Below are positions 6,092 through 45,489 of a stretch of 64,000 nt of DNA, in pieces. Source of the DNA: Naegleria gruberi (lineage: Eukaryota); NCBI GenBank assembly GCA_000004985.1, contig GG738854.1; one strand, written 5' to 3'. The notes beneath the pieces were generated by a model. The model did no database searches. It saw only the letters and a program-made list of their open reading frames with translations, and was not told the DNA's origin. The stretch's first letter is position 1. Every line of letters begins with the position of its first letter. A program made the translations under genes and the position numbers.

Positions 6092-6257
6092 TGATGGAAC
6101 ATAAATTGAGTTTAGAATATTCAAATATTGCTAGAAATAATTATTTTCTGTTCAATAAACCCAGTATCAGTTATACTAAAGTACTTCATATCATGCCGCG
6201 GTATTATCTTTCGAATAATTTCACAGTTTACAAAATATTATTTTTTTTTTTAAAAAA

Positions 6258-17961: not shown

Positions 17962-20900
17962 ATGCAAAACAATGTAGAGGAAACAAAATTTAATAACAAT
18001 AATAGTAGTACTAATAACATGGTCAACAACAATACAAGTATTGGAAAGGAGAATGGTGGAGAGAATGCCTATATTGATGATTCGTTGGAAACTTTACCAA
18101 TGCGATCTGCTAGAAGAATCATTCAATTCATTGGTGAGAAATTATCAAATGATTCGGAAATTACTCCATCCAAAAGGAAAGCCATCGAATCCATCATTAC
18201 AGAGGATAGAATAATGAAGGAAATTGAACAATTGGTAGGGAAGGATTACTTTAATTTGAGTGAGGAAGTAACAAGCCTTGGAAGGAAAATTAATATGAAT
18301 CAAAAGATGGATGTTGAGTATTCTGATAGACCAGAGCCTATTGTTCTTACCAATCGAGTAAAGATGCTCTATGGAGGAGAGAATGATAAATCAAAGGTAG
18401 TTTCCTCAACATTGAGAAGATTTGATAAATCCAAATATTCTCATGCATCAAAATTGAAACAACAACAAGAATTGAATAGGAAATTAATTAATAATTCGAA
18501 AAACTTGAAGGTAGATCCGAGAGATATCGAGGAAAATCAACCAGTTCGATTAGTTTACGATGAGGAAAAGCCAACCCAGAAAGATATTGAAATTTATAGA
18601 GGTGATAAGAATGAAGAATTGACTGATGAGGAACGTGCACTACAACAAGCAGTGAGCTACATGCAAAAGTACAAGGAATACTTTAAATATATACAGGATA
18701 TTAAGGTTAGTAGAGTTTGATATTTTAATTAGAAATGTAAAGTATTTGAGACATATTCCAAGTAAATCAGCTCGTAGTATGATTATTGAGAATTTTGAGA
18801 AATATTTGGTAGGTTTTTGGATAATTTCACTTTTGTTTCATACTGTTGACTAGATGGATGCCAAGTACTATTTACACTTTTATCATAAATATTCGTATTT
18901 TTGGGCTCCAGAGTCAACTAGATCTGTAGAATCCTACAAAGGGCTATTCGTTCCAATTGACAAGAGAAAAGAAGAGGAAACTTTTGATTTTAAATCACTT
19001 GATACTTACGAACCACTGAGGACAATGATTTATCAAGATTTTCATGACAGAGTAAGGAATGGATTACCACCTTCTTTGGATTTGGATGGAAAACTTCCTC
19101 TTCTTGCAATGCACTATGCAAGAACTACCTTTGTACCACCAATGACAAGAGAGGAAATGAACAGGCTTTTCTATCCAATAACAGAGGATGTTAAATATCA
19201 AATTCCAGAATATAAGGGCACCAAAGTAGATAAGGTACAGAATTCTACCATGCTAAATAGATTCCAAAAGTATTACTTTACCAGAAGGCATTTGGCTGGT
19301 TTAAAAACTTTATTTTGGTATTATGACTCGTATACTGAATGCGTAAAACCTGTTGCGGTCGAAGAATTTCTGGATCATTTATCTCGTCTAGTTTACCTTT
19401 TTGAGAATGATTTAGTGAAGGTCAAACATGAAGATCAATGTCTTGGATTATTTCATTCCTTCACACAACATTCTGCCATATCCAAAGAGCTAATAATGAT
19501 TATTTCTTCTTGTTTCTTCATGGGACTACCATTCGTGACATCCTTTGAGAAAATAGATAATATTCAGGATTTGATTTCCAATATTTCTCAATACTGTTCC
19601 CTTCCTGTTATTGCCTCAGCAGATCACAGGATTGTTTCCAAAATACTTGGTAGCAACCAATCGAATATTAGTAAGCTATTGTACTATGGAAATAACGAGT
19701 CATCTTTTCAAAGCGAAAAAGGAACTACTTCTTTTAAGAAGGATCCAATTTCTAATATTCTCAAACCTATCAAAGTAAGTTGAAAAGTTAGAATGAATTA
19801 ATTTATAATCTCTTTTAGCAAATTAGTGTAAATAACAAGCCATCCCATGTCACCTCGTGGGATTACATTCCATCTAATATAGATACCAATATGCATGTGG
19901 TTAATTACAAGGAATCTATTAAAAGTAGGACGAGCGAGTTGGATTCTGCAGATATAGAGAATGTTAGACAATCTACAATATCTAAATATTCAAGCAGAGA
20001 CAAAAGAAATGACCTTCTCTACATGACTTACCATGGAACTCAAGTTGGATGCATAACAGGCTCAACTTTTGAGAGAGTGATTGATTCATTGAATGAACAA
20101 TTTAAAGATTTACTCAATCATATCAAGCAAACAAAATCAAGTGATACTACACCCAAGAAAGTTAATGTTATGATAATGTCCAATGGTTTCAGTATGCTAA
20201 CAATGTATTTGCTTGCATTTTGTTTTGAAAATGCCCTCTCCTTTTCTTTTATTCCTATAACTGAAAAGGAAACAATGCTAAAAAATTTAGGAGAGTTGCA
20301 ACCAGATATTATCATTAGTGATACACATACCATAAATTGGATATCAGAAATTCTTGACTCGGTAACTTTTAACTATAAGTATCCAAACCATAACACTGTT
20401 ATTGACAGTGAACATTTGAACAATATTAACATTGAATATGAAGGGCTAATAACAGACTGGACCATGTCAAATACACTAAAGAACCTGAAAAATACATTCT
20501 CCCAGATTGGAAAGCAAAACCACAATAACCATTGGAATTTACACGGAATAATAACTATTGGAACAGGTTTACCTATTGAGACCATCCATACTCTATCAAA
20601 GAAAGTCAAATTTATATACCAGTTGATACAAGAGGATCATGTTCAATCTCCTCTTTTGGTAAGAAATTTCTCAAACTCTGGACATTATTCACTTGAACGT
20701 GAGATTATGAAACCATGGACCTTTTCGACAATCAATGAAAAAAATCAAATTGTGATAGAGGGAGTTTCTGCAATTGTTAGAAAGAGACCTTTGTTTGAAT
20801 CCCGTAAGGAAGAGGTTATACTCACAGGTATGGAAAATTCAGTATTCGACACGAACGAAAGGTCTAACACCTTGGAACAATCAAATCAATTAAGAAATAA

Positions 20901-23491: not shown

Positions 23492-25165
23492 TTATTGTTT
23501 GTTTTCTAATTTTGAAACTCTATCAAGAAGCATTTCTAATTGAGATTTGAGGAATAAATTCTCCTGTTCAACTCTCCTCACATGCTTGAAAACAAAATTC
23601 AATTGTCTGGCAGAGAGATAATGAATGAGATTCCTTGTAGTTTCGTAAGATGCAACACTGTAAGGTGTTTGACCTCTCTTGTTTCTAAAATTGACATCTG
23701 CACCATTGGAAATCAGTAACTCAATGATTGGGCACCAATTTCTCTCAGCTGCATAATGTAAGCCAGTTTCTAATTCATCATCACATAAATCTATTTGAGC
23801 TCCATAGCTGTAGAGAAGTTTAGTCACAGAGAATAACCCCAATTTACAAGCCAACATGAATGGCGAACGGTTATTCTTGTCCAAAGTGTCCACGCCCACA
23901 TTAGGTTGACTAAGAAGGAATGAAAGCAACTCTTCATTGTTATTTCTTACTGCAGCATGAAGAGGGGACTCAAAACAGGCTCCATGTTGAATGGCAAAGT
24001 CAAAATCGTTAGGATAGTTAGTCATTATATATTTTACAATGTTGGATCTGTTAAATTTAGTGGCAGAGTAGAGGAAGTATTCGTTAGGGTTTGATTTTTC
24101 TCGAATCAAGTATTGCTTGTAATTATTTTCAAAGAGAACTTTGAATGCCTCAACATTGTCTTGACACGATAAAAGAACATAGATTGCATTTCTCCCATTA
24201 ATATCGTACTTGTGAGGTTGGGCTCCAAATTCAATCAGTCTTCTCAACTTTTCCAAATCAATAGTCTCTCTTCTGATTTCTTCAGTGAGTGCCTTGTTGA
24301 GAACAATTCTGTTAATGTTTTGGTTTGGTGTCAGGTCATTCAAAAGTGGTGGAATGTTTCTCTGCAGTCTGGACTCCAATAGGAACATGTACATTTCCTC
24401 TACCATCTCTGTGGTACCTAGCTTACATGCCAATTCATAGCCATTCAGAGTATAGTCAATCAGAGTCTTCTTACAAAGCTTATTTGGCTTGGTCAATTGG
24501 CTTATATTGTAATTTACCAATTCGCTTAACATTTCAGGTGAATAGAGCAACAATCTCACATCATTCTGATAAATTTCTCTTGCCAAATTTCTATCCTTAT
24601 TAACAACAGCCCATTGAAACTCAACCACAGAATTACAAGGAAGAAACACATCATTGGACAAGTGATATTGGAAAGGACAAACTTTGGAATGTTTCAAATT
24701 CTCAAAAAATCGTTGAATTTCATTCTTAATATGAACATTCTCAATAGTTTGAGTTCCAATATTCTCTCTAGTGAATGGAGACTCTGAATTGTGATTTATC
24801 AACCATTGACTAATCAGTTCCTTCTCATATGTTCTTCCATCTCCAGCCAAATAGGGCTCTACCATTATTATATCACTTATTGGACAAAACAAATCATCGG
24901 AAGGTTGCAAAGACTCAAAGTCTACTTCTTCATCTTGTTGACTATTGTTGGCTGGTTGTATGGTTGCAGTTGAAATATTATCAATAACCAAATTTTCAAG
25001 CCTTTGATTTTCTACCAGTAAATTCTCTTCTTCATAATCAACAAGACATGGTTCTTGCTTGTTAGTGGAAGGATTCATATTCAGTAAGACAATTGGTTCT
25101 TCTCCCATTTTCTTTTCATATTGTTCTTCCATCAGATTACAATTAATTTGAGTTGATAAGGTCAT
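23492..25165 (-). CDS. U-box E3 ligase-like protein with C-terminal ankyrin repeats (557 aa)
   Basis: True ATG at 25165. U-box motif LFCPISDIIMVEPYLAGDGRTYEKELISQWLINHNSESPFTRE. C-terminal ankyrin repeats (TPLHAAVRNNNEELLSFLL.., TGLHYAAERNWCPIIELLISNGADVNFRNKRGQTPY). Confidence 0.65.
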   Translation of the reverse strand: MTLSTQINCNLMEEQYEKKMGEEPIVLLNMNPSTNKQEPCLVDYEEENLLVENQRLENLVIDNISTATIQPANNSQQDEEVDFESLQPSDDLFCPISDIIMVEPYLAGDGRTYEKELISQWLINHNSESPFTRENIGTQTIENVHIKNEIQRFFENLKHSKVCPFQYHLSNDVFLPCNSVVEFQWAVVNKDRNLAREIYQNDVRLLLYSPEMLSELVNYNISQLTKPNKLCKKTLIDYTLNGYELACKLGTTEMVEEMYMFLLESRLQRNIPPLLNDLTPNQNINRIVLNKALTEEIRRETIDLEKLRRLIEFGAQPHKYDINGRNAIYVLLSCQDNVEAFKVLFENNYKQYLIREKSNPNEYFLYSATKFNRSNIVKYIMTNYPNDFDFAIQHGACFESPLHAAVRNNNEELLSFLLSQPNVGVDTLDKNNRSPFMLACKLGLFSVTKLLYSYGAQIDLCDDELETGLHYAAERNWCPIIELLISNGADVNFRNKRGQTPYSVASYETTRNLIHYLSARQLNFVFKHVRRVEQENLFLKSQLEMLLDRVSKLENKQ

Positions 25166-39557: not shown

Positions 39558-39753
39558 TGATGGTTTAAGAGGAGAAGATTTGTCATTGAATTTGTGATGG
39601 TCATTTTATTAATAGCTTGCCAAAAACTTTCATTGTAAAAATCTATCAACCAAGAGCAGTTTTAATAAAATTTGTTTCGAAAAAAAAATCTCAAAGTCAC
39701 AAAAGTATGTATTGCTGCTGTTGAAAAATTTTATTAACACGCTTCTTTAATAG

Positions 39754-40536
39754 ATGGGTAAGAGAATTAGAGCTCAAAGAAAGGGTAACGGTGCTGGTCC
39801 ATACAAGACTAGATCTATCTACAAGATCGCCAAACCACAATACAGACATTTGGACTACTCTGAAAGAGAAGGTTTCATGAAGGGTGTCGTTAGACAAATC
39901 GTTCACGAACCAGGTCGTGGTGCTCCATTGGCTGAAGTTGCCTTCAGACATCCATTGAAGCCAAAGAAGGATATCCAATACTTCCTTGCTCCAGAAGGTT
40001 TATATACTGGTCAATTCGTTTTCTGCGGTCAAAAGGCTGAATTGAAGATTGGTAACGTCCTCCCAATTGGTAACTTGCCAGAAGGTACTGTCTGTTGTAA
40101 CGTTGAAAGAAAGACTGGTGATAGAGGTGCATTGGCTAGAGCTGCTGGTGAATCCGCTGTTATTATTGCCCACTCTGAAGATGGTAAGACTAGAGTTAAG
40201 CTCCCATCTGGTGTCAAGAAGACTCTCCCATCCGATAACAGAGCTACCATTGGTGTTATTGCCTGTGGTGGTAAGACTGAAAGACCTGTCTTGAAGGCTT
40301 CAACCAATTACTTCAGATTCAAGGCTAAGGGTAGAAAGCAATGGCCAAGAGTTAGAGGTGTTGCCATGAACCCTGTTGAACATCCACACGGTGGTGGTAA
40401 CCATCAACACATTGGTAAGCCATCTACTGTTTCCAGATTGACACCTGCCGGTAGAAAGGTCGGTTTGATCGGTGCCAGAAGAACTGGTAGAATTAGAGGT
40501 GGTAAGGCCAACGTCAACCAAGTTGAAAAGGATTAA
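39754..40536 (+). CDS. RPL8: 60S ribosomal protein L8 (uL2)
   Basis: 260 aa, near-universal uL2 sequence (..GRGAPLA.., ..[11 protein letters not shown].., ..[22 protein letters not shown]..). Strongly biased codons (GGT, AAG, AGA, CCA, GCT, TTG) indicate high expression. Confidence 0.95.
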
Positions 40537-40751: not shown

Positions 40752-41709
40752 TTATTGACAACACTTTTTCTTTTCCTTTGGTTTGGTGTTGGTTTCTTGA
40801 TTGAGATTGACTTTGGTTGTGGTTGGTTCTGTAGGGGGTGTTTGTTGTGGAGTGGTTTCATCATTTTGAGCTTGTTCGAGTTTGTTATAATAATCAATGG
40901 CTATGGTTTGGAAAACTAAACATGATGATTAAAATTTGAGAAGGGTAATAATGTGATAACTTACTTTCCTTAACATTCAAATTTTCTTTCACACTAGCTC
41001 TGAAAAATTTAATACCCAACTCTGTGGCAAGTACTTCTGCTTCTGAACTATTGAAATGTGTCAAATAAAAATTCGAAATAAACTTACGGCTGTATGACAG
41101 CTTGGTCTATCAAATCAATCTTATTTTGAATTAAAACTTTACATAAATTAGTGTCGTCACATTGAGTATCCACTTTTTCATTCCAAGCTTTGATGGCTTC
41201 GAAACTTCTACGATCAGTTGTTGAAAATACCAGAATGGCTCCTTTGGCTCCTCTATAGTATTGTCTGGTCATGTCAGCAAATTCTAAATTCCACACACAA
41301 AATTAGTTTTCATTAATTAAATATATTTACCTTCCTAAAATAATACAGTTATTAATTACTCAACATTCCAATATCGTTTTTTGATAAACTTACTTGTCCA
41401 GCAGTGTCCCACAACATGAAAGTTACTATTTATCAATTAAAAGTTTGATGAAATTAAAAGGTTTGATGAAGGCAAGTCATTAAAAATCCATCAAATATTA
41501 ATTCCATTCTACATACCTGCCTCGTTTATAGGATCGGGTATATATTGTTGTTTTTCTTTGAAAGCAACTCCAATAGTTTGTCTATAATCAGGATCATATT
41601 TTGAATCGACAAATCTTCGGACCAAACTGGTTTTACCAACTTGACCGTCTCCAACAATAATTACTTTCATATGTTCTGTTATTATTTTCCAAATATAACA
41701 ATTGTTCAT
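40752..41709 (-). CDS. RAB23: Rab23-like small GTPase, 6 exons including a 4-nt micro-exon
   Basis: Exons are 41709..41517, 41425..41394, 41334..41331 (GAAG), 41283..41088, 41047..40965 and about 40914..40752. Introns are 91, 59, 47, 40 and about 50 nt (GTATGT, GTAAGT, GTAAAT, GTAAGT, GTAAGT donors). Product is ..[90 protein letters not shown]...KKKCCQ*. Close to Rab23 ([34 protein letters not shown]..). C-terminal CC prenylation motif. Confidence 0.75.
41331..41334 (-). CDS. 4-nt coding micro-exon (GAAG) of the Rab23-like gene
   Basis: Flanked by a canonical acceptor (tattttag|GAAG) and donor (GAAG|gtaaatat). It is needed to connect phase-0 exon 2 (..WDTAGQ) to phase-1 exon 3 (aa ttt gct..) and it generates the conserved QEEF of switch II. 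Confidence 0.65.
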
Positions 41710-43529: not shown

Positions 43530-44513
43530 ATGAATGAAAATGAATCGAGCCAATTTGATGAAATTCAAGTATTGCAATCAATGTACACTACCGAAGAATT
43601 AAAACCTCGGACGGGAATGGATAGATGTTGGCTCATTCCGATAAATGTTAATAATAATATTGATGATGATGAAACGACAGGATTGTTGGATTGTTTGGTT
43701 TTTGAATTTTGGTTTCATAGAAATTATCCTTCTGAATCGGAACCATTCTTTGAATTGAAAGGAGCTAAAAATTGGATTAATTTACCATATAATCAATTTA
43801 AGAATAATAACTATTTTGCTCAATCGGGATTGGATGAATTGGATAAAATTACTATAAAGGAGGCTCTGCAGATGGAGTTAAAGGCCATGTTCTCTCTTGG
43901 AGTACCAATTGCTTTTACTTGGATTGAGTTTTTGAGAAATGATTTATCGAACATGTTGGACGTAAATGAGATTTATAATCATGTTAAATTGAATCAAAAG
44001 GTTGTATCAATTCAACCAAATTCAAGAAAGTCTAACGAGGATAAAATCTCAACAAGGGTATTGGATATTATTCATGGGGAATCATTCACAGAAAAGAAAT
44101 CCAAATTTGTTGGACATGTGGCAATTGTAAAATCTTTGGAAGATGTCAACTTGATGCTGTCTCAATTATTGGAAGATGATAAAGTGGCAAATGCTACTCA
44201 CAACATTTATGCATATAGAATACGGCAAGGTGATCAAATTTTGGAAAATAGAGATGACGATGGAGAGACTGGAGCTGCTGATCAAATTCTTTATCTGATG
44301 CAAATCTCCAATGCAGAGAATGTATGCTGTGTGGTGACAAGATGGTATGGTGGTATAAAATTGGGAGCAGATAGATTCAGAGTAAGTAGTTCATTTCTAA
44401 TTGTTCATTGAACTAGGTTATCCATGATGAAACAATGAAAATTGAAATAGATCATTACAAACGTTGCCAAAAAAGTACTGCAGGATAATAACTTTATTGC
44501 TACGAGAAAGTAA
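43530..44513 (+). CDS. IMPACT: IMPACT/Yih1 homologue (RWD plus UPF0029 domains), 2 exons
   Basis: Exon 1 is 43530..44381 (aaaaaaaATG). The intron is 44382..44450 (69 nt, GTAAGT..AAATAG, phase 0). Exon 2 is 44451..44513. RWD-like N-terminus (EIQVLQSMYTTEEL..). UPF0029 core GHVAIVKSLEDVNLMLSQLLEDDKVANATHNIYAYRI...TGAADQILYLMQ..VVTRWYGGIKLGADRFR|IITNVAKKVLQDNNFIATRK*. Confidence 0.75.
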
Positions 44514-44628: not shown

Positions 44629-45489
44629 ATGAGTCAAAGCCCACCTTCTGTTACATCCTCTATTGAAAACCAATTTTTGGATGACCAAATCTTTATCGGA
44701 GTCAGTGGTATGATTGGTTCAGGTGAGTATAATATCAATTTCGTCTGTTGTTTAACAATAATTTAATTAATAATAGGAAAGGTAAATATTTAGCCTATTT
44801 TTGTAAATTCATAAAATCAATATTCTTTAGACCACTCTCGCTAAAGCACTCGCTGAAAAGATTGGAGTTGGAGTACATTATGAACCAGTTATTGATAATT
44901 CCTACTTGGCTGATTTTTATTCTGATATGAAGACTTATTCTTTCCGTTTGCAAGTTTATTTGTTGAATAAGAGATTCGAACAACACCAGAAAATTATTTG
45001 GGGATCAAATGGAGGAGTTCAAGATAGAACTATCTATGAAGATGCTATCTTTGCCAAGGTTTTGATGGATACTGGAATGATGGAAAAGAGAGATTATGAA
45101 ACCTATGTTTCCCTTTTCAGAAACATGTCGAAGGTATGTTGTTATTGTGGTGATTTTTAATGAAGCCTTTTATGTTAAAATAGTTTATGAAACACAATAC
45201 AATGATTATTCACTTGGATGTTTCTCCAGAAACAAGCATGGAAAGAATCAAGATGAGAGGAAGAGAATGTGAAAGTGGAATTACTCTCGAATATCTTCAA
45301 AAGTTGCATAGTGGATATGAAGAATGGCTCACCAAGATTTCAAAGATTATTCCAGTTATTAAGGTTAATTGGAGTCAATTCAGAAGTCTTGAAAATGTTT
45401 TGGAAGAAGTTATGAAAGCCTATAATCAAATTCAAAATATTCAACATGTTACTTTTGAAAATAAGGATACCAGCAGTACAGTTCTCTAA
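44629..45489 (+). CDS. Deoxyribonucleoside kinase (dCK/dGK/TK2 family), 4 exons including a 5-nt micro-exon
   Basis: Exons are 44629..44722, 44777..44781 (GAAAG), 44831..45133 and 45184..45489. Introns are 54, 49 and 50 nt (GTGAGT, GTAAAT, GTATGT donors). Spliced product is ..IFIGVSGMIGSGKTTLAKALAEKIGVGVHYEPV...GGVQDRTIYEDAIFAKV...RIKMRGRECESGITLEYLQKL.. It shows the P-loop, the ERS-like DRTIYED motif and the Arg-rich lid typical of dNKs. About 236 aa. Confidence 0.75.
44777..44781 (+). CDS. 5-nt coding micro-exon (GAAAG) of the deoxynucleoside kinase gene
   Basis: taataatag|GAAAG|gtaaatat. Joining ggt tca g + ga aag + acc act gives G-S-G-K-T-T, the Walker-A/P-loop. A single-intron model shifts the frame into a stop. 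Confidence 0.7.

What the first reader, a model, noticed from the sequence alone, without database searches (positions are those of the whole stretch)
44723..44830. 5-nt micro-exon (GAAAG) completes the P-loop GSGKTT of a deoxynucleoside kinase
Exon 1 ends ..GMIGS + g (phase 1, gtgagt donor). The long downstream exon starts acc act ctc (TTLAKALAEK) in phase 0. A direct join frameshifts into a TAA. Inserting GAAAG (taataatag|GAAAG|gtaaatat) gives ggt tca gga aag acc act, that is GSGKTT, the Walker-A motif of dCK/dGK-family kinases. This is the second micro-exon in 3.5 kb. Both are G-A-A-(A)-G and both are followed by a gtaaatat donor, which suggests a recurring micro-exon architecture in this genome.
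Basis: partly seen in the sequence, partly recalled or inferred. Interest (0 to 1): 0.7.

Follow-up and report, generated by a model that had tools for sequence, protein, structure and literature searches.

The report
Five-base exon completes kinase ATP-binding loop
A conserved 5-base exon (GAAAG) in the amoeba Naegleria gruberi supplies the Gly-Lys codons of a deoxynucleoside kinase's ATP-binding loop; the kind of feature is known, but two of three reference annotations, including that of the pathogen N. fowleri, miss it and give a truncated or loop-less protein.

Summary
There is no direct transcript read.

- **Organism.** The window is Naegleria gruberi. NCBI EFC47453.1 ("predicted protein, partial", 202 aa) is identical to exons 3+4 here.
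- **Gene model.** Exon 1 (44629-44722), micro-exon GAAAG (44777-44781), exon 3 (44831-45133) and exon 4 (45184-45489) give a 235-aa deoxynucleoside kinase. Pfam dNK scores 172.9 bits, and every alternative splice model scores at least 12 bits lower. The introns are 54, 49 and 50 nt.
- **Conservation.** The same ag|GNAAG|gt sits between otherwise unalignable introns in N. fowleri, N. lovaniensis and an environmental Naegleria-like species. The environmental copy is GCAAG, a synonymous GGA to GGC change.
- **Existing annotations.** The RNA-seq-guided N. lovaniensis annotation already contains the micro-exon. The N. fowleri model splices out the P-loop. The N. gruberi model is 5'-partial.
- **Second micro-exon.** GAAG at 41331-41334 on the minus strand completes DTAGQEEF of a Rab23-like GTPase. 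It is real and specific to N. gruberi.
- **Shared "GAA(A)G + gtaaatat" architecture.** Not supported. Orthologous micro-exons are followed by gttggt or gtatgt donors, and the flanking introns are unrelated.

This is a new member of a known kind. Its value is mainly as an annotation correction.

The parts
44629..44722 (+). dNK exon 1 (ATG to ...GGT TCA G, phase 1): MSQSPPSVTSSIENQFLDDQIFIGVSGMIGS + first base of the Gly codon
   Evidence: The last 8 codons differ from N. fowleri, N. lovaniensis and the environmental species only at third positions.
44723..44776 (+). Intron 1, 54 nt, gtgagt...aataatag
   Evidence: The orthologous introns are 65, 60 and 37 nt and cannot be aligned.
44777..44781 (+). 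5-nt micro-exon GAAAG, supplying (G)GA AAG = the Gly-Lys of Walker A GSGKTT
   Evidence: Conserved as GAAAG in N. fowleri (L001 6157-6161) and N. lovaniensis (L003 6152-6156), and as GCAAG in the environmental contig (L010 552-556).
44782..44830 (+). Intron 2, 49 nt, gtaaatat...attctttag
   Evidence: The orthologous introns are 136, 45 and 37 nt, with donors gttggt, gttggt and gtatgt.
44831..45133 (+). dNK exon 3 (TTLAKALAEK...FRNMSK), phase 0
   Evidence: The deposited partial N. gruberi protein EFC47453.1 starts exactly here.
45134..45183 (+). Intron 3, 50 nt, gtatgt...aaaatag
   Evidence: An intron sits at the same position in the three other Naegleria genomes.
45184..45489 (+). dNK exon 4 (FMKHNTMIIHLD...TSSTVL, stop included)
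41331..41334 (-). Second micro-exon, 4 nt GAAG, in a Rab23-like GTPase gene (exons 41670-41517, 41425-41394, 41334-41331, 41283-41088, 41047-40965, 40915-40752). It completes the switch-II motif WDTAGQ-EE-F.
   Evidence: Pfam Ras scores 169.4 bits against 156.9 for the deposited N. gruberi model, which reads DTAGQVKF. In N. lovaniensis and an N. fowleri-like contig the same bases are contiguous with the upstream exon (CAAGAAG|gt, CAAGAGG|gt).

Best explanation
The window is Naegleria gruberi nuclear DNA. Positions 44629-45489 (+) hold a four-exon gene for a non-TK1-type deoxyribonucleoside kinase. Its second exon is the 5-nt micro-exon GAAAG (44777-44781), flanked by two ordinary short GT-AG introns of 54 and 49 nt.

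In the mature mRNA the exon supplies the last two bases of the Gly codon and the whole Lys codon of the Walker-A loop GVSGMIGSGKTT. Without it the frame breaks after five codons.

Inferred mechanism, not shown here:
- In this short-intron genome splice sites are probably paired across introns (intron definition).
- The 3' splice site of intron 1 and the 5' splice site of intron 2 are only 5 nt apart, so the two introns are most likely removed one after the other.
- Removing either one first fuses the micro-exon to a normal-sized exon and leaves an ordinary splice site for the second step.
- All five exon bases lie within the splice-site consensus (acceptor +1 G; donor -3..-1 AAG). This may help recognition and explains why both micro-exons in the window look alike.

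The arrangement dates at least to the common ancestor of the sampled Naegleria species. It is absent from Willaertia magna.
For: **Shown**
1. Only the model 44723-44776 / GAAAG / 44782-44830 gives the family's GxxGxGKT[ST] loop. Other in-frame GT-AG models shorten or delete it.
2. Pfam dNK scores 172.9 bits over profile positions 1-200 for this model, against 151.5-160.8 bits for the alternatives.
3. Homologues from many eukaryotes and the solved Giardia dAK (8PUU, E 3.7e-76) have I-S-G-[LM]-I-G-[AS]-G-K-[ST]-T at the same place.
4. Exactly one AG|GNAAG|GT lies in the exon1-exon3 interval of N. gruberi, N. fowleri, N. lovaniensis and an environmental Naegleria-like contig. The flanking introns (37-136 nt) cannot be aligned.
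5. The environmental copy is GCAAG, a synonymous change at the exon's only degenerate codon position.
6. Synonymous sites between these species are close to saturated (pS 0.6-0.7, dS at least 1.3) and dN/dS is 0.03-0.05. Retention of the 9-mer therefore reflects selection, and the gene is not a pseudogene.
7. My five-exon N. lovaniensis model, including the 5-nt exon, reproduces the deposited protein KAG2378571.1 exactly. That annotation was made with BRAKER1 using RNA-seq (PMC6125883).
8. The chance of the motif in the interval is 0.1-0.25%.
9. Each half of the 108-nt interval matches the gene's other intron (50 nt) and the 38-50 nt range of GTAAGT- and GTATGT-type introns in the window.
Against: - No transcript sequence from N. 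gruberi was available. The exact spliced proteins are not in the protein collection, and a scan of metagenome and metatranscriptome contigs for the spliced junction found nothing.
- The N. fowleri BRAKER1 + RNA-seq annotation does not include the micro-exon. Short-read aligners commonly fail on such exons (PMC8831610), which could account for that.
- The donor after the micro-exon (gtaaat; gttggt in two orthologues) departs from the window's dominant GTAAGT.
- An in-frame single-intron alternative, 44701-44830, exists.
- The order of intron removal and the intron-definition mechanism are inferred from general knowledge, not tested.
Confidence: 0.92

Rival explanations
1. There is one long intron (44701-44830, donor GGA|gtcagt) and no micro-exon. 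The real protein reads ...QIFIG-TTLAKAL... and lacks the P-loop, as in the deposited N. fowleri model FDP41_008735.
For: This join is in frame and free of stops. A BRAKER1 + RNA-seq annotation of N. fowleri chose the equivalent model.
Against: - It deletes the Walker-A Gly-Lys that every homologue and the solved Giardia enzyme retain.
- The Pfam score drops by 21 bits.
- The 22 nt it treats as intron (GTC AGT GGT ATG ATT GGT TCA G) change only at synonymous third positions among four species, whereas true intron sequence is unalignable.
- The N. lovaniensis annotation includes the loop.
Confidence: 0.03
2. The gene is a decaying pseudogene or carries an assembly error, and the GAAAG match is coincidental.
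For: The reference N. gruberi annotation could only call a 5'-partial protein.
Against: - Four independent assemblies show the same structure.
- dN/dS is 0.03-0.05 with near-saturated synonymous sites.
- All exons are intact.
- The motif probability is 0.1-0.25% per genome.
Confidence: 0.01
3. The micro-exon is real but is a regulated cassette. A substantial share of transcripts skip it, giving a frameshift and a TAA after 5 codons, so that skipping down-regulates the kinase through unproductive splicing.
For: Skipping gives an immediate premature stop. The donors after the micro-exon are weak in three of four species.
Against: No data bear on splicing ratios. According to PMC8831610, intron retention is the more common alternative outcome for micro-exons in plants, whereas skipping is frequent in animals. 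Nothing about the locus requires regulation.
Confidence: 0.1
4. GAA(A)G followed by gtaaatat marks a special, recurrent micro-exon class or module in this genome.
For: - The two instances in the window are the only matches to AG-GAAG/GAAAG-GTAAAT.
- Both are micro-exons.
- GTAAAT is not evidently used as a donor by ordinary introns in the window (a noisy estimate).
Against: - Orthologous dNK micro-exons use gttggt, gttggt and gtatgt donors, and one is GCAAG.
- The Rab23 GAAG is not a separate exon in the relatives.
- Flanking introns are no more similar than shuffled sequence, and no repeated intron family was found.
- The scan found no third case.
- G...AAG is what the splice consensus plus the codons GGA-AAG and GAA-G would produce.
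Confidence: 0.07

Closest known systems
Ultra-short constitutive coding micro-exons (1-15 nt) that annotation pipelines miss, as catalogued in plants (Yu et al. 2022, Nat Commun, PMC8831610; for example the 1-nt exons of APC11 and VPS55 and an RT-PCR-verified 5-nt exon in rice)
   Same: - An internal coding exon of a few bases between canonical GT-AG introns.
- Conserved across species.
- Reference annotations miss or mis-model it, giving truncated or altered proteins.
- Related lineages carry the same bases fused to a neighbouring exon, as with Rab23 GAAG here.
   Different: - The organism is a heterolobosean amoeba (Discoba) with 37-136 nt introns, not a plant.
- Full-text searches found no paper on micro-exons in Naegleria.
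- There is no RNA-seq or RT-PCR confirmation here.
Giardia intestinalis deoxyadenosine kinase (PDB 8PUU; Ranjbarian et al. 2024, NAR, PMC11662666), a non-TK1-like dNK
   Same: - It is the best solved relative: E 3.7e-76 over residues 18-227.
- It shares the P-loop ISGLIGAGKTT, the QDR[ST]IYED motif and the arginine-rich ERIKxRxRxCE lid segment.
- Same Pfam family, PF01712.
   Different: - Substrate preference and oligomeric state of the Naegleria protein are untested.
- The Naegleria N- and C-terminal tails differ from the Giardia tails that mediate tetramerisation.
- Whether the Giardia gene has introns was not examined; 8PUU was compared as a protein only.
N. lovaniensis C9374_008210 (KAG2378571.1), the orthologous gene as deposited
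   Same: The exon-intron structure around the P-loop is the same, including a 5-nt GAAAG exon. The deposited protein is reproduced only if that exon is used. It is 87% identical in protein sequence.
   Different: It has one extra intron near the 3' end, and its donor after the micro-exon is gttggt. In N. gruberi and N. fowleri the deposited models lack the micro-exon.

Membership tests
Deoxynucleoside kinase family (Pfam PF01712; non-TK1-like dNKs) | Profile match above the curated threshold over the whole domain | tested here: met
   172.9 bits against a cutoff of 27; residues 23-216 cover profile positions 1-200 of 203.
Deoxynucleoside kinase family (Pfam PF01712; non-TK1-like dNKs) | N-terminal Walker-A / P-loop GxxxxGK[ST]T | tested here: met
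   GMIGSGKTT is present only when the micro-exon is included. It aligns to GLIGAGKTT of 8PUU and GTVGAGKST of 2JAS.
Deoxynucleoside kinase family (Pfam PF01712; non-TK1-like dNKs) | Conserved (E/D)R(S/T) substrate-site motif and arginine-rich lid segment | tested here: met
   QDRTIYED aligns with QDRSIYED, and ERIKMRGRECE with ERIKERSRNCE of 8PUU. That these motifs define the family rests on my own knowledge of it.
Deoxynucleoside kinase family (Pfam PF01712; non-TK1-like dNKs) | Phosphorylates deoxyribonucleosides; substrate specificity | not testable with these tools
   Needs an enzyme assay.
Coding micro-exon (internal exon of 15 nt or less) | Flanked on both sides by canonical AG / GT splice sites, with introns of viable length | tested here: met
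   aataatag|GAAAG|gtaaatat, with introns of 54 and 49 nt. The gene's third intron is 50 nt.
Coding micro-exon (internal exon of 15 nt or less) | Needed to keep the reading frame and to restore conserved residues | tested here: met
   Skipping gives GSDHSR then a stop. Inclusion gives GSGKTT and the best profile score.
Coding micro-exon (internal exon of 15 nt or less) | Conserved in orthologues while the flanking introns diverge | tested here: met
   GAAAG in three genomes and GCAAG in one, with unalignable introns.
Coding micro-exon (internal exon of 15 nt or less) | Present in mature mRNA (junction reads or cDNA) | not testable with these tools
   Only indirect evidence: the RNA-seq-guided N. 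lovaniensis model contains it. No N. gruberi transcript was found.
Rab23-type small GTPase (second gene, 40752-41670 minus strand) | Ras-family domain with an intact switch-II DTAGQE motif, and best named matches to Rab23 | tested here: met
   Pfam Ras scores 169.4 bits. WDTAGQEEF is present only with the GAAG micro-exon. The named hits are Rab-23 from many eukaryotes at 44-62% identity.

The most novel reading that the evidence does not exclude
Naegleria genomes may carry an unusually dense, largely unannotated population of constitutive 4-5 nt micro-exons.

- They would arise when a lineage-specific intron is gained or shifted a few bases from an existing intron. The Rab23 gene shows three different states in three lineages: a 4-nt exon, a 19-nt exon, and fusion to the upstream exon.
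- They often fall inside catalytic motifs.
- Reference proteomes, including that of the pathogen N. fowleri, would then systematically lack key residues in a meaningful number of enzymes.
Probability: 0.15. Interest if true: 0.55.

Novelty: new member of a known kind. Interest (0 to 1): 0.35.

Why it matters
- **Corrected gene models.** The result fixes two N. gruberi models: dNK goes from 5'-partial to a complete 235-aa protein, and the Rab23-like protein goes from DTAGQVKF with a retained intron to DTAGQEEF. It also fixes one N. fowleri model, FDP41_008735, which as deposited lacks the ATP-binding loop.
- **Possible drug relevance.** The closest characterised relative, Giardia dAK, activates deoxyadenosine analogues that kill the parasite (PMC11662666). 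A correct N. fowleri dNK sequence therefore matters for any target or prodrug work on primary amoebic meningoencephalitis.
- **Wider points.** A discobid spliceosome appears to handle 4-5 nt exons. Standard RNA-seq-guided pipelines give inconsistent results on the same micro-exon in sister species.

Tried and rejected
- **Exact look-up** of the spliced N. gruberi and corrected N. fowleri proteins: neither is in the collection. The N. gruberi partial protein has no recorded contig.
- **Scan of metagenome contigs** for the spliced junction GGNATGATTGGNTCAGGAAAGACNAC: 0 hits.
- **The search for related loci in metagenomes:** only relatives at 47% identity or less, plus L027. L027 is an error-ridden copy of the environmental species in which G runs are collapsed, so it adds no independent evidence for the micro-exon.
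- **Literature:** no paper on micro-exons in Naegleria and none on a Naegleria deoxynucleoside kinase.
- **ORF-based harvest of introns** to obtain a donor consensus: too noisy, with a background compatibility of 3.7%. Only GTAAGT (7 of 21) and GTATGT (5 of 31) stand out.
- **Window-wide micro-exon scan:** it recovered the dNK case, but all other candidates failed on inspection. ATGG at 39754 is simply the uL2 start ATG GGT AAG after a 5'-UTR intron. The candidates at 24517 and 14654 lie in continuous ORFs. Those at 19775 and 50173 are ordinary single introns. The scan cannot see micro-exons next to short exons, and it missed the Rab23 one.
- **Intron duplication or an introner origin:** the flanking introns are no more alike than shuffles (fraction of shuffles reaching the observed score 0.11-0.48), and there are no repeated copies in the window.
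- **Minus strand under the finding:** only short, unconvincing ORFs.

Full report
**What is in the sequence**

The window is AT-rich (about 33% G+C) and eukaryotic, with short introns. On the + strand an ATG at 44629 opens a frame that reads MSQSPPSVTSSIENQFLDDQIFIGVSGMIGS. It reaches G|gtgagt at 44722/44723. A long open frame begins at 44831 after tctttag with ACC ACT CTC (TTLAKALAEK...). Joining the two directly gives GSDHSR followed by TAA.

Between them lies taataatag|GAAAG|gtaaatat, with GAAAG at 44777-44781. Using it as an exon gives GGT TCA GGA AAG ACC ACT, which is GSGKTT. With a further 50-nt intron (45134-45183) the result is a clean 235-codon ORF ending at 45489. The three introns are 54, 49 and 50 nt.

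**What the gene is and where the window comes from**

The 235-aa product matches Pfam dNK (PF01712) at 172.9 bits over profile positions 1-200. Its nearest database proteins are from Naegleria fowleri and Willaertia magna.

The 90% cluster of the N. fowleri hit also holds N. gruberi EFC47453.1, "predicted protein, partial", 202 aa. That sequence is identical to exons 3+4 of the window and starts exactly at TTLAKAL. The window is therefore N. gruberi, and the reference annotation failed to find the 5' end of this gene.

The closest solved structure is the Giardia intestinalis deoxyadenosine kinase 8PUU, at E 3.7e-76. It shares the P-loop, the QDR[ST]IYED motif and the arginine-rich ERIKxRxRxCE segment (PMC11662666).

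**Is the micro-exon the right model?**

I enumerated all GT/GC-AG single-intron models and all two-intron models with an internal exon of 1-30 nt. Several keep the frame. Only 44723-44776 / GAAAG / 44782-44830 gives the loop G-V-S-G-M-I-G-S-G-K-T-T with the spacing seen in every homologue.

Pfam scores rank the models in the same order:

| Model | Pfam dNK bits |
|---|---|
| Micro-exon model | 172.9 |
| Two shortened-loop models | 160.8 and 160.4 |
| Read-through variant | 156.1 |
| P-loop-less single intron 44701-44830 | 151.5 |

A motif AG|GNAAR|GT turns up in 0.25% of dinucleotide shuffles of the 108-nt interval. The figure is 0.12% if both flanking introns must be at least 30 nt.

**Comparative evidence**

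This is the main support. I fetched the orthologous loci.

| Genome | Micro-exon and flanks | Position | Introns either side |
|---|---|---|---|
| N. gruberi (window) | taataatag\|GAAAG\|gtaaatat | 44777-44781 | 54 and 49 nt |
| N. fowleri | ...ataaaag\|GAAAG\|gttggtaa... | L001 6157-6161 | 65 and 136 nt |
| N. lovaniensis | ...catacag\|GAAAG\|gttggttg... | L003 6152-6156 | 60 and 45 nt |
| Environmental Naegleria-like contig (84-89% protein identity to the three) | ...ttgaaag\|GCAAG\|gtatgttt... | L010 552-556 | 37 and 37 nt |

- In each genome exactly one AG|GNAAG|GT lies in the exon1-exon3 interval.
- The intron sequence around it cannot be aligned. MAFFT did not even place the N. lovaniensis copy in register.
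- The one substitution inside the micro-exon, GGA to GGC, is synonymous.
- The eight codons before the first donor differ among species only at third positions.
- Over the whole CDS, dN/dS is 0.03-0.05 against N. gruberi, with synonymous sites nearly saturated (pS 0.6-0.7). Retention of the 9-mer therefore cannot be put down to too little divergence time, and the gene is under strong purifying selection.
- Willaertia magna, the sister genus, has a single intron 6 nt further upstream (ATT G|gt...ag|GC GCT GGA AAG TCA) and no micro-exon. The arrangement is thus at least as old as the sampled Naegleria species but not shared with Willaertia.

**State of the existing annotations**

- **N. lovaniensis.** My five-exon reconstruction, including the 5-nt exon, reproduces the deposited protein KAG2378571.1 residue for residue. 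That annotation came from BRAKER1 with RNA-seq data (PMC6125883). The micro-exon is therefore already implicitly present in a public annotation, probably through spliced-read support. That last step is my inference.
- **N. fowleri.** The deposited model FDP41_008735, also from BRAKER1 + RNA-seq (PMC6831594), uses the internal GGA|gtgagt as its donor. It reads ...VFIG-TTLAKAL..., which deletes VSGMIGSGK, the whole P-loop.
- **N. gruberi.** The model is 5'-partial.

So two of three reference proteomes have a defective kinase sequence. This inconsistency is the behaviour described for plant micro-exons, where aligners and predictors miss exons of a few bases (PMC8831610).

**The second micro-exon and the "recurring architecture" idea**

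On the minus strand a six-exon gene (41670-40752) encodes a 210-aa Rab23-like GTPase. This requires that ttttag|GAAG|gtaaatat (41334-41331) be used as a 4-nt exon. It turns ...WDTAGQ / FADM... into WDTAGQEEFADM. Pfam Ras scores 169.4 bits, and the best named hits are Rab-23.

The deposited N. gruberi model NAEGRDRAFT_31544 instead reads DTAGQVKF. This fits a donor shifted 4 nt downstream, which is my inference. It also retains the last intron and scores 156.9 bits.

In N. lovaniensis and an N. fowleri-like contig the same bases are simply the end of the upstream exon (CAAGAAG|gt, CAAGAGG|gt). In the environmental species an intron lies 15 nt further upstream, giving a 19-nt exon. The GAAG micro-exon is therefore real. 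It exists only because N. gruberi has an extra intron 4 nt from a conserved one.

This argues against a fixed GAA(A)G + gtaaatat module, as do four further points:
- The orthologous dNK micro-exons are followed by gttggt, gttggt and gtatgt.
- The four flanking introns are no more similar to each other than to shuffled sequence, and they have no other copies in the window.
- The window's dominant donor is GTAAGT(TT), and GTAAAT is not evidently used elsewhere (a noisy estimate).
- A limited scan for further micro-exons found only false positives.

The likeness of the two exons follows from two constraints:
- In a 4-5 nt exon every base lies in the exonic part of a splice-site consensus (G after the acceptor, AAG before the donor).
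- The codons needed are GGA-AAG and GAA-G.

The identical 8-mer gtaaatat remains a small, post-hoc coincidence that I cannot explain further.

**How it most likely works**

- **Shown:** the gene structure, its conservation and its coding necessity.
- **Inferred from established knowledge of splicing:**
  - With introns of 37-136 nt, splice sites are probably paired across introns.
  - An acceptor and a donor only 5 nt apart probably cannot both be occupied at once. PMC8831610 argues the same in its discussion.
  - The two introns are therefore probably removed in sequence.
  - Removing either one first fuses GAAAG to a normal exon and leaves an ordinary site: TCAGGAAAG|gtaaat or aatag|GAAAGACCACT.
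- **Not known:** whether skipping, which gives a premature stop, is used for regulation.

**Verdict**

The kind of feature is known and is already captured in one sister-species annotation, so this is a new member of a known kind. Its practical value is corrected gene models, notably for a possible nucleoside-analogue-activating enzyme of N. fowleri. It also hints that Naegleria may hide more such exons. The "recurring architecture" reading is not supported.

Noticed in passing
L001 6001-7024 (N. fowleri VFQX01000063.1): The deposited N. fowleri dNK model FDP41_008735 (KAF0973071.1 / XP_044557784.1) splices from GGA|gtgagtgg to tag|ACCACT, which removes VSGMIGSGK, the whole Walker-A loop. Using the micro-exon at 6157-6161 gives a 234-aa protein with GSGKTT.
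   Followed up: yes
window 40752-41670 (minus strand): The deposited N. gruberi Rab23-like model NAEGRDRAFT_31544 (EFC47581.1, 179 aa) reads DTAGQVKF instead of DTAGQEEF and ends in a retained intron (KESKLSHYYPSQILIIMFSFPNHSH). A six-exon model with the 4-nt exon gives 210 aa ending in a CCQ prenylation-type tail. A possible extra 5' exon (ATGGAGGAATTAGAGA|gtaggt at 41873-41858) would add MEELEKH, matching the MDEVEKH of N. lovaniensis. It was not added to the model.
   Followed up: partly
L007 5660-5800; L004 3240-3430; window 41284-41425: Intron positions around the Rab23 switch-II motif differ among Naegleria lineages. N. gruberi has introns after CAA and after GAAG. The environmental species has them after TGG and after GAAG, giving a 19-nt exon. 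N. lovaniensis and the N. fowleri-like contig have one only after GAAG or GAGG. This points to recent intron gain, loss or sliding within a few bases of a conserved intron.
   Followed up: partly
L010 415-1230 and L027 296-1130: In the environmental Naegleria-like dNK gene all three introns are exactly 37 nt. A second, error-prone contig of a near-identical organism (L027, with G runs collapsed) carries one additional intron of about 45 nt after AAAATGAG that L010 lacks. This is an intron presence/absence difference between very close relatives.
   Followed up: no
L002 5990-6060 (Willaertia magna JBEGDK010000037.1): The Willaertia dNK has a single phase-1 intron 6 nt upstream of the Naegleria intron-1 position and no micro-exon. 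The deposited model starts at the internal Met of MIGAGKST, so it is probably N-terminally truncated. Upstream sequence encodes ...SSIENQFLNDQIFIGISG in frame.
   Followed up: no
window 39705-39760 (+): The ribosomal protein uL2 (RPL8) gene has a 49-nt 5'-UTR intron that ends immediately before the start codon (taatag|ATGGGTAAGAGA). The ATG GGT AAG mimics a 4-nt exon plus a gtaaga donor and can fool micro-exon scans.
   Followed up: yes
window 44300-44510 (+): The gene upstream of dNK looks like an IMPACT/RWD-family gene (...RWYGGIKLGADRF, then an intron AGA|gtaagtag). N. fowleri has an RWD/Impact_N gene about 5 kb upstream of its dNK, so synteny is partly kept. The Rab23-like gene is not a neighbour of dNK in N. 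fowleri or N. lovaniensis.
   Followed up: no
(database behaviour): A search with the 101-aa exon-3 peptide did not return the N. fowleri / N. gruberi cluster (P0001), although it is 82-100% identical. Absence from homologous-protein output is therefore not evidence of absence.
   Followed up: no
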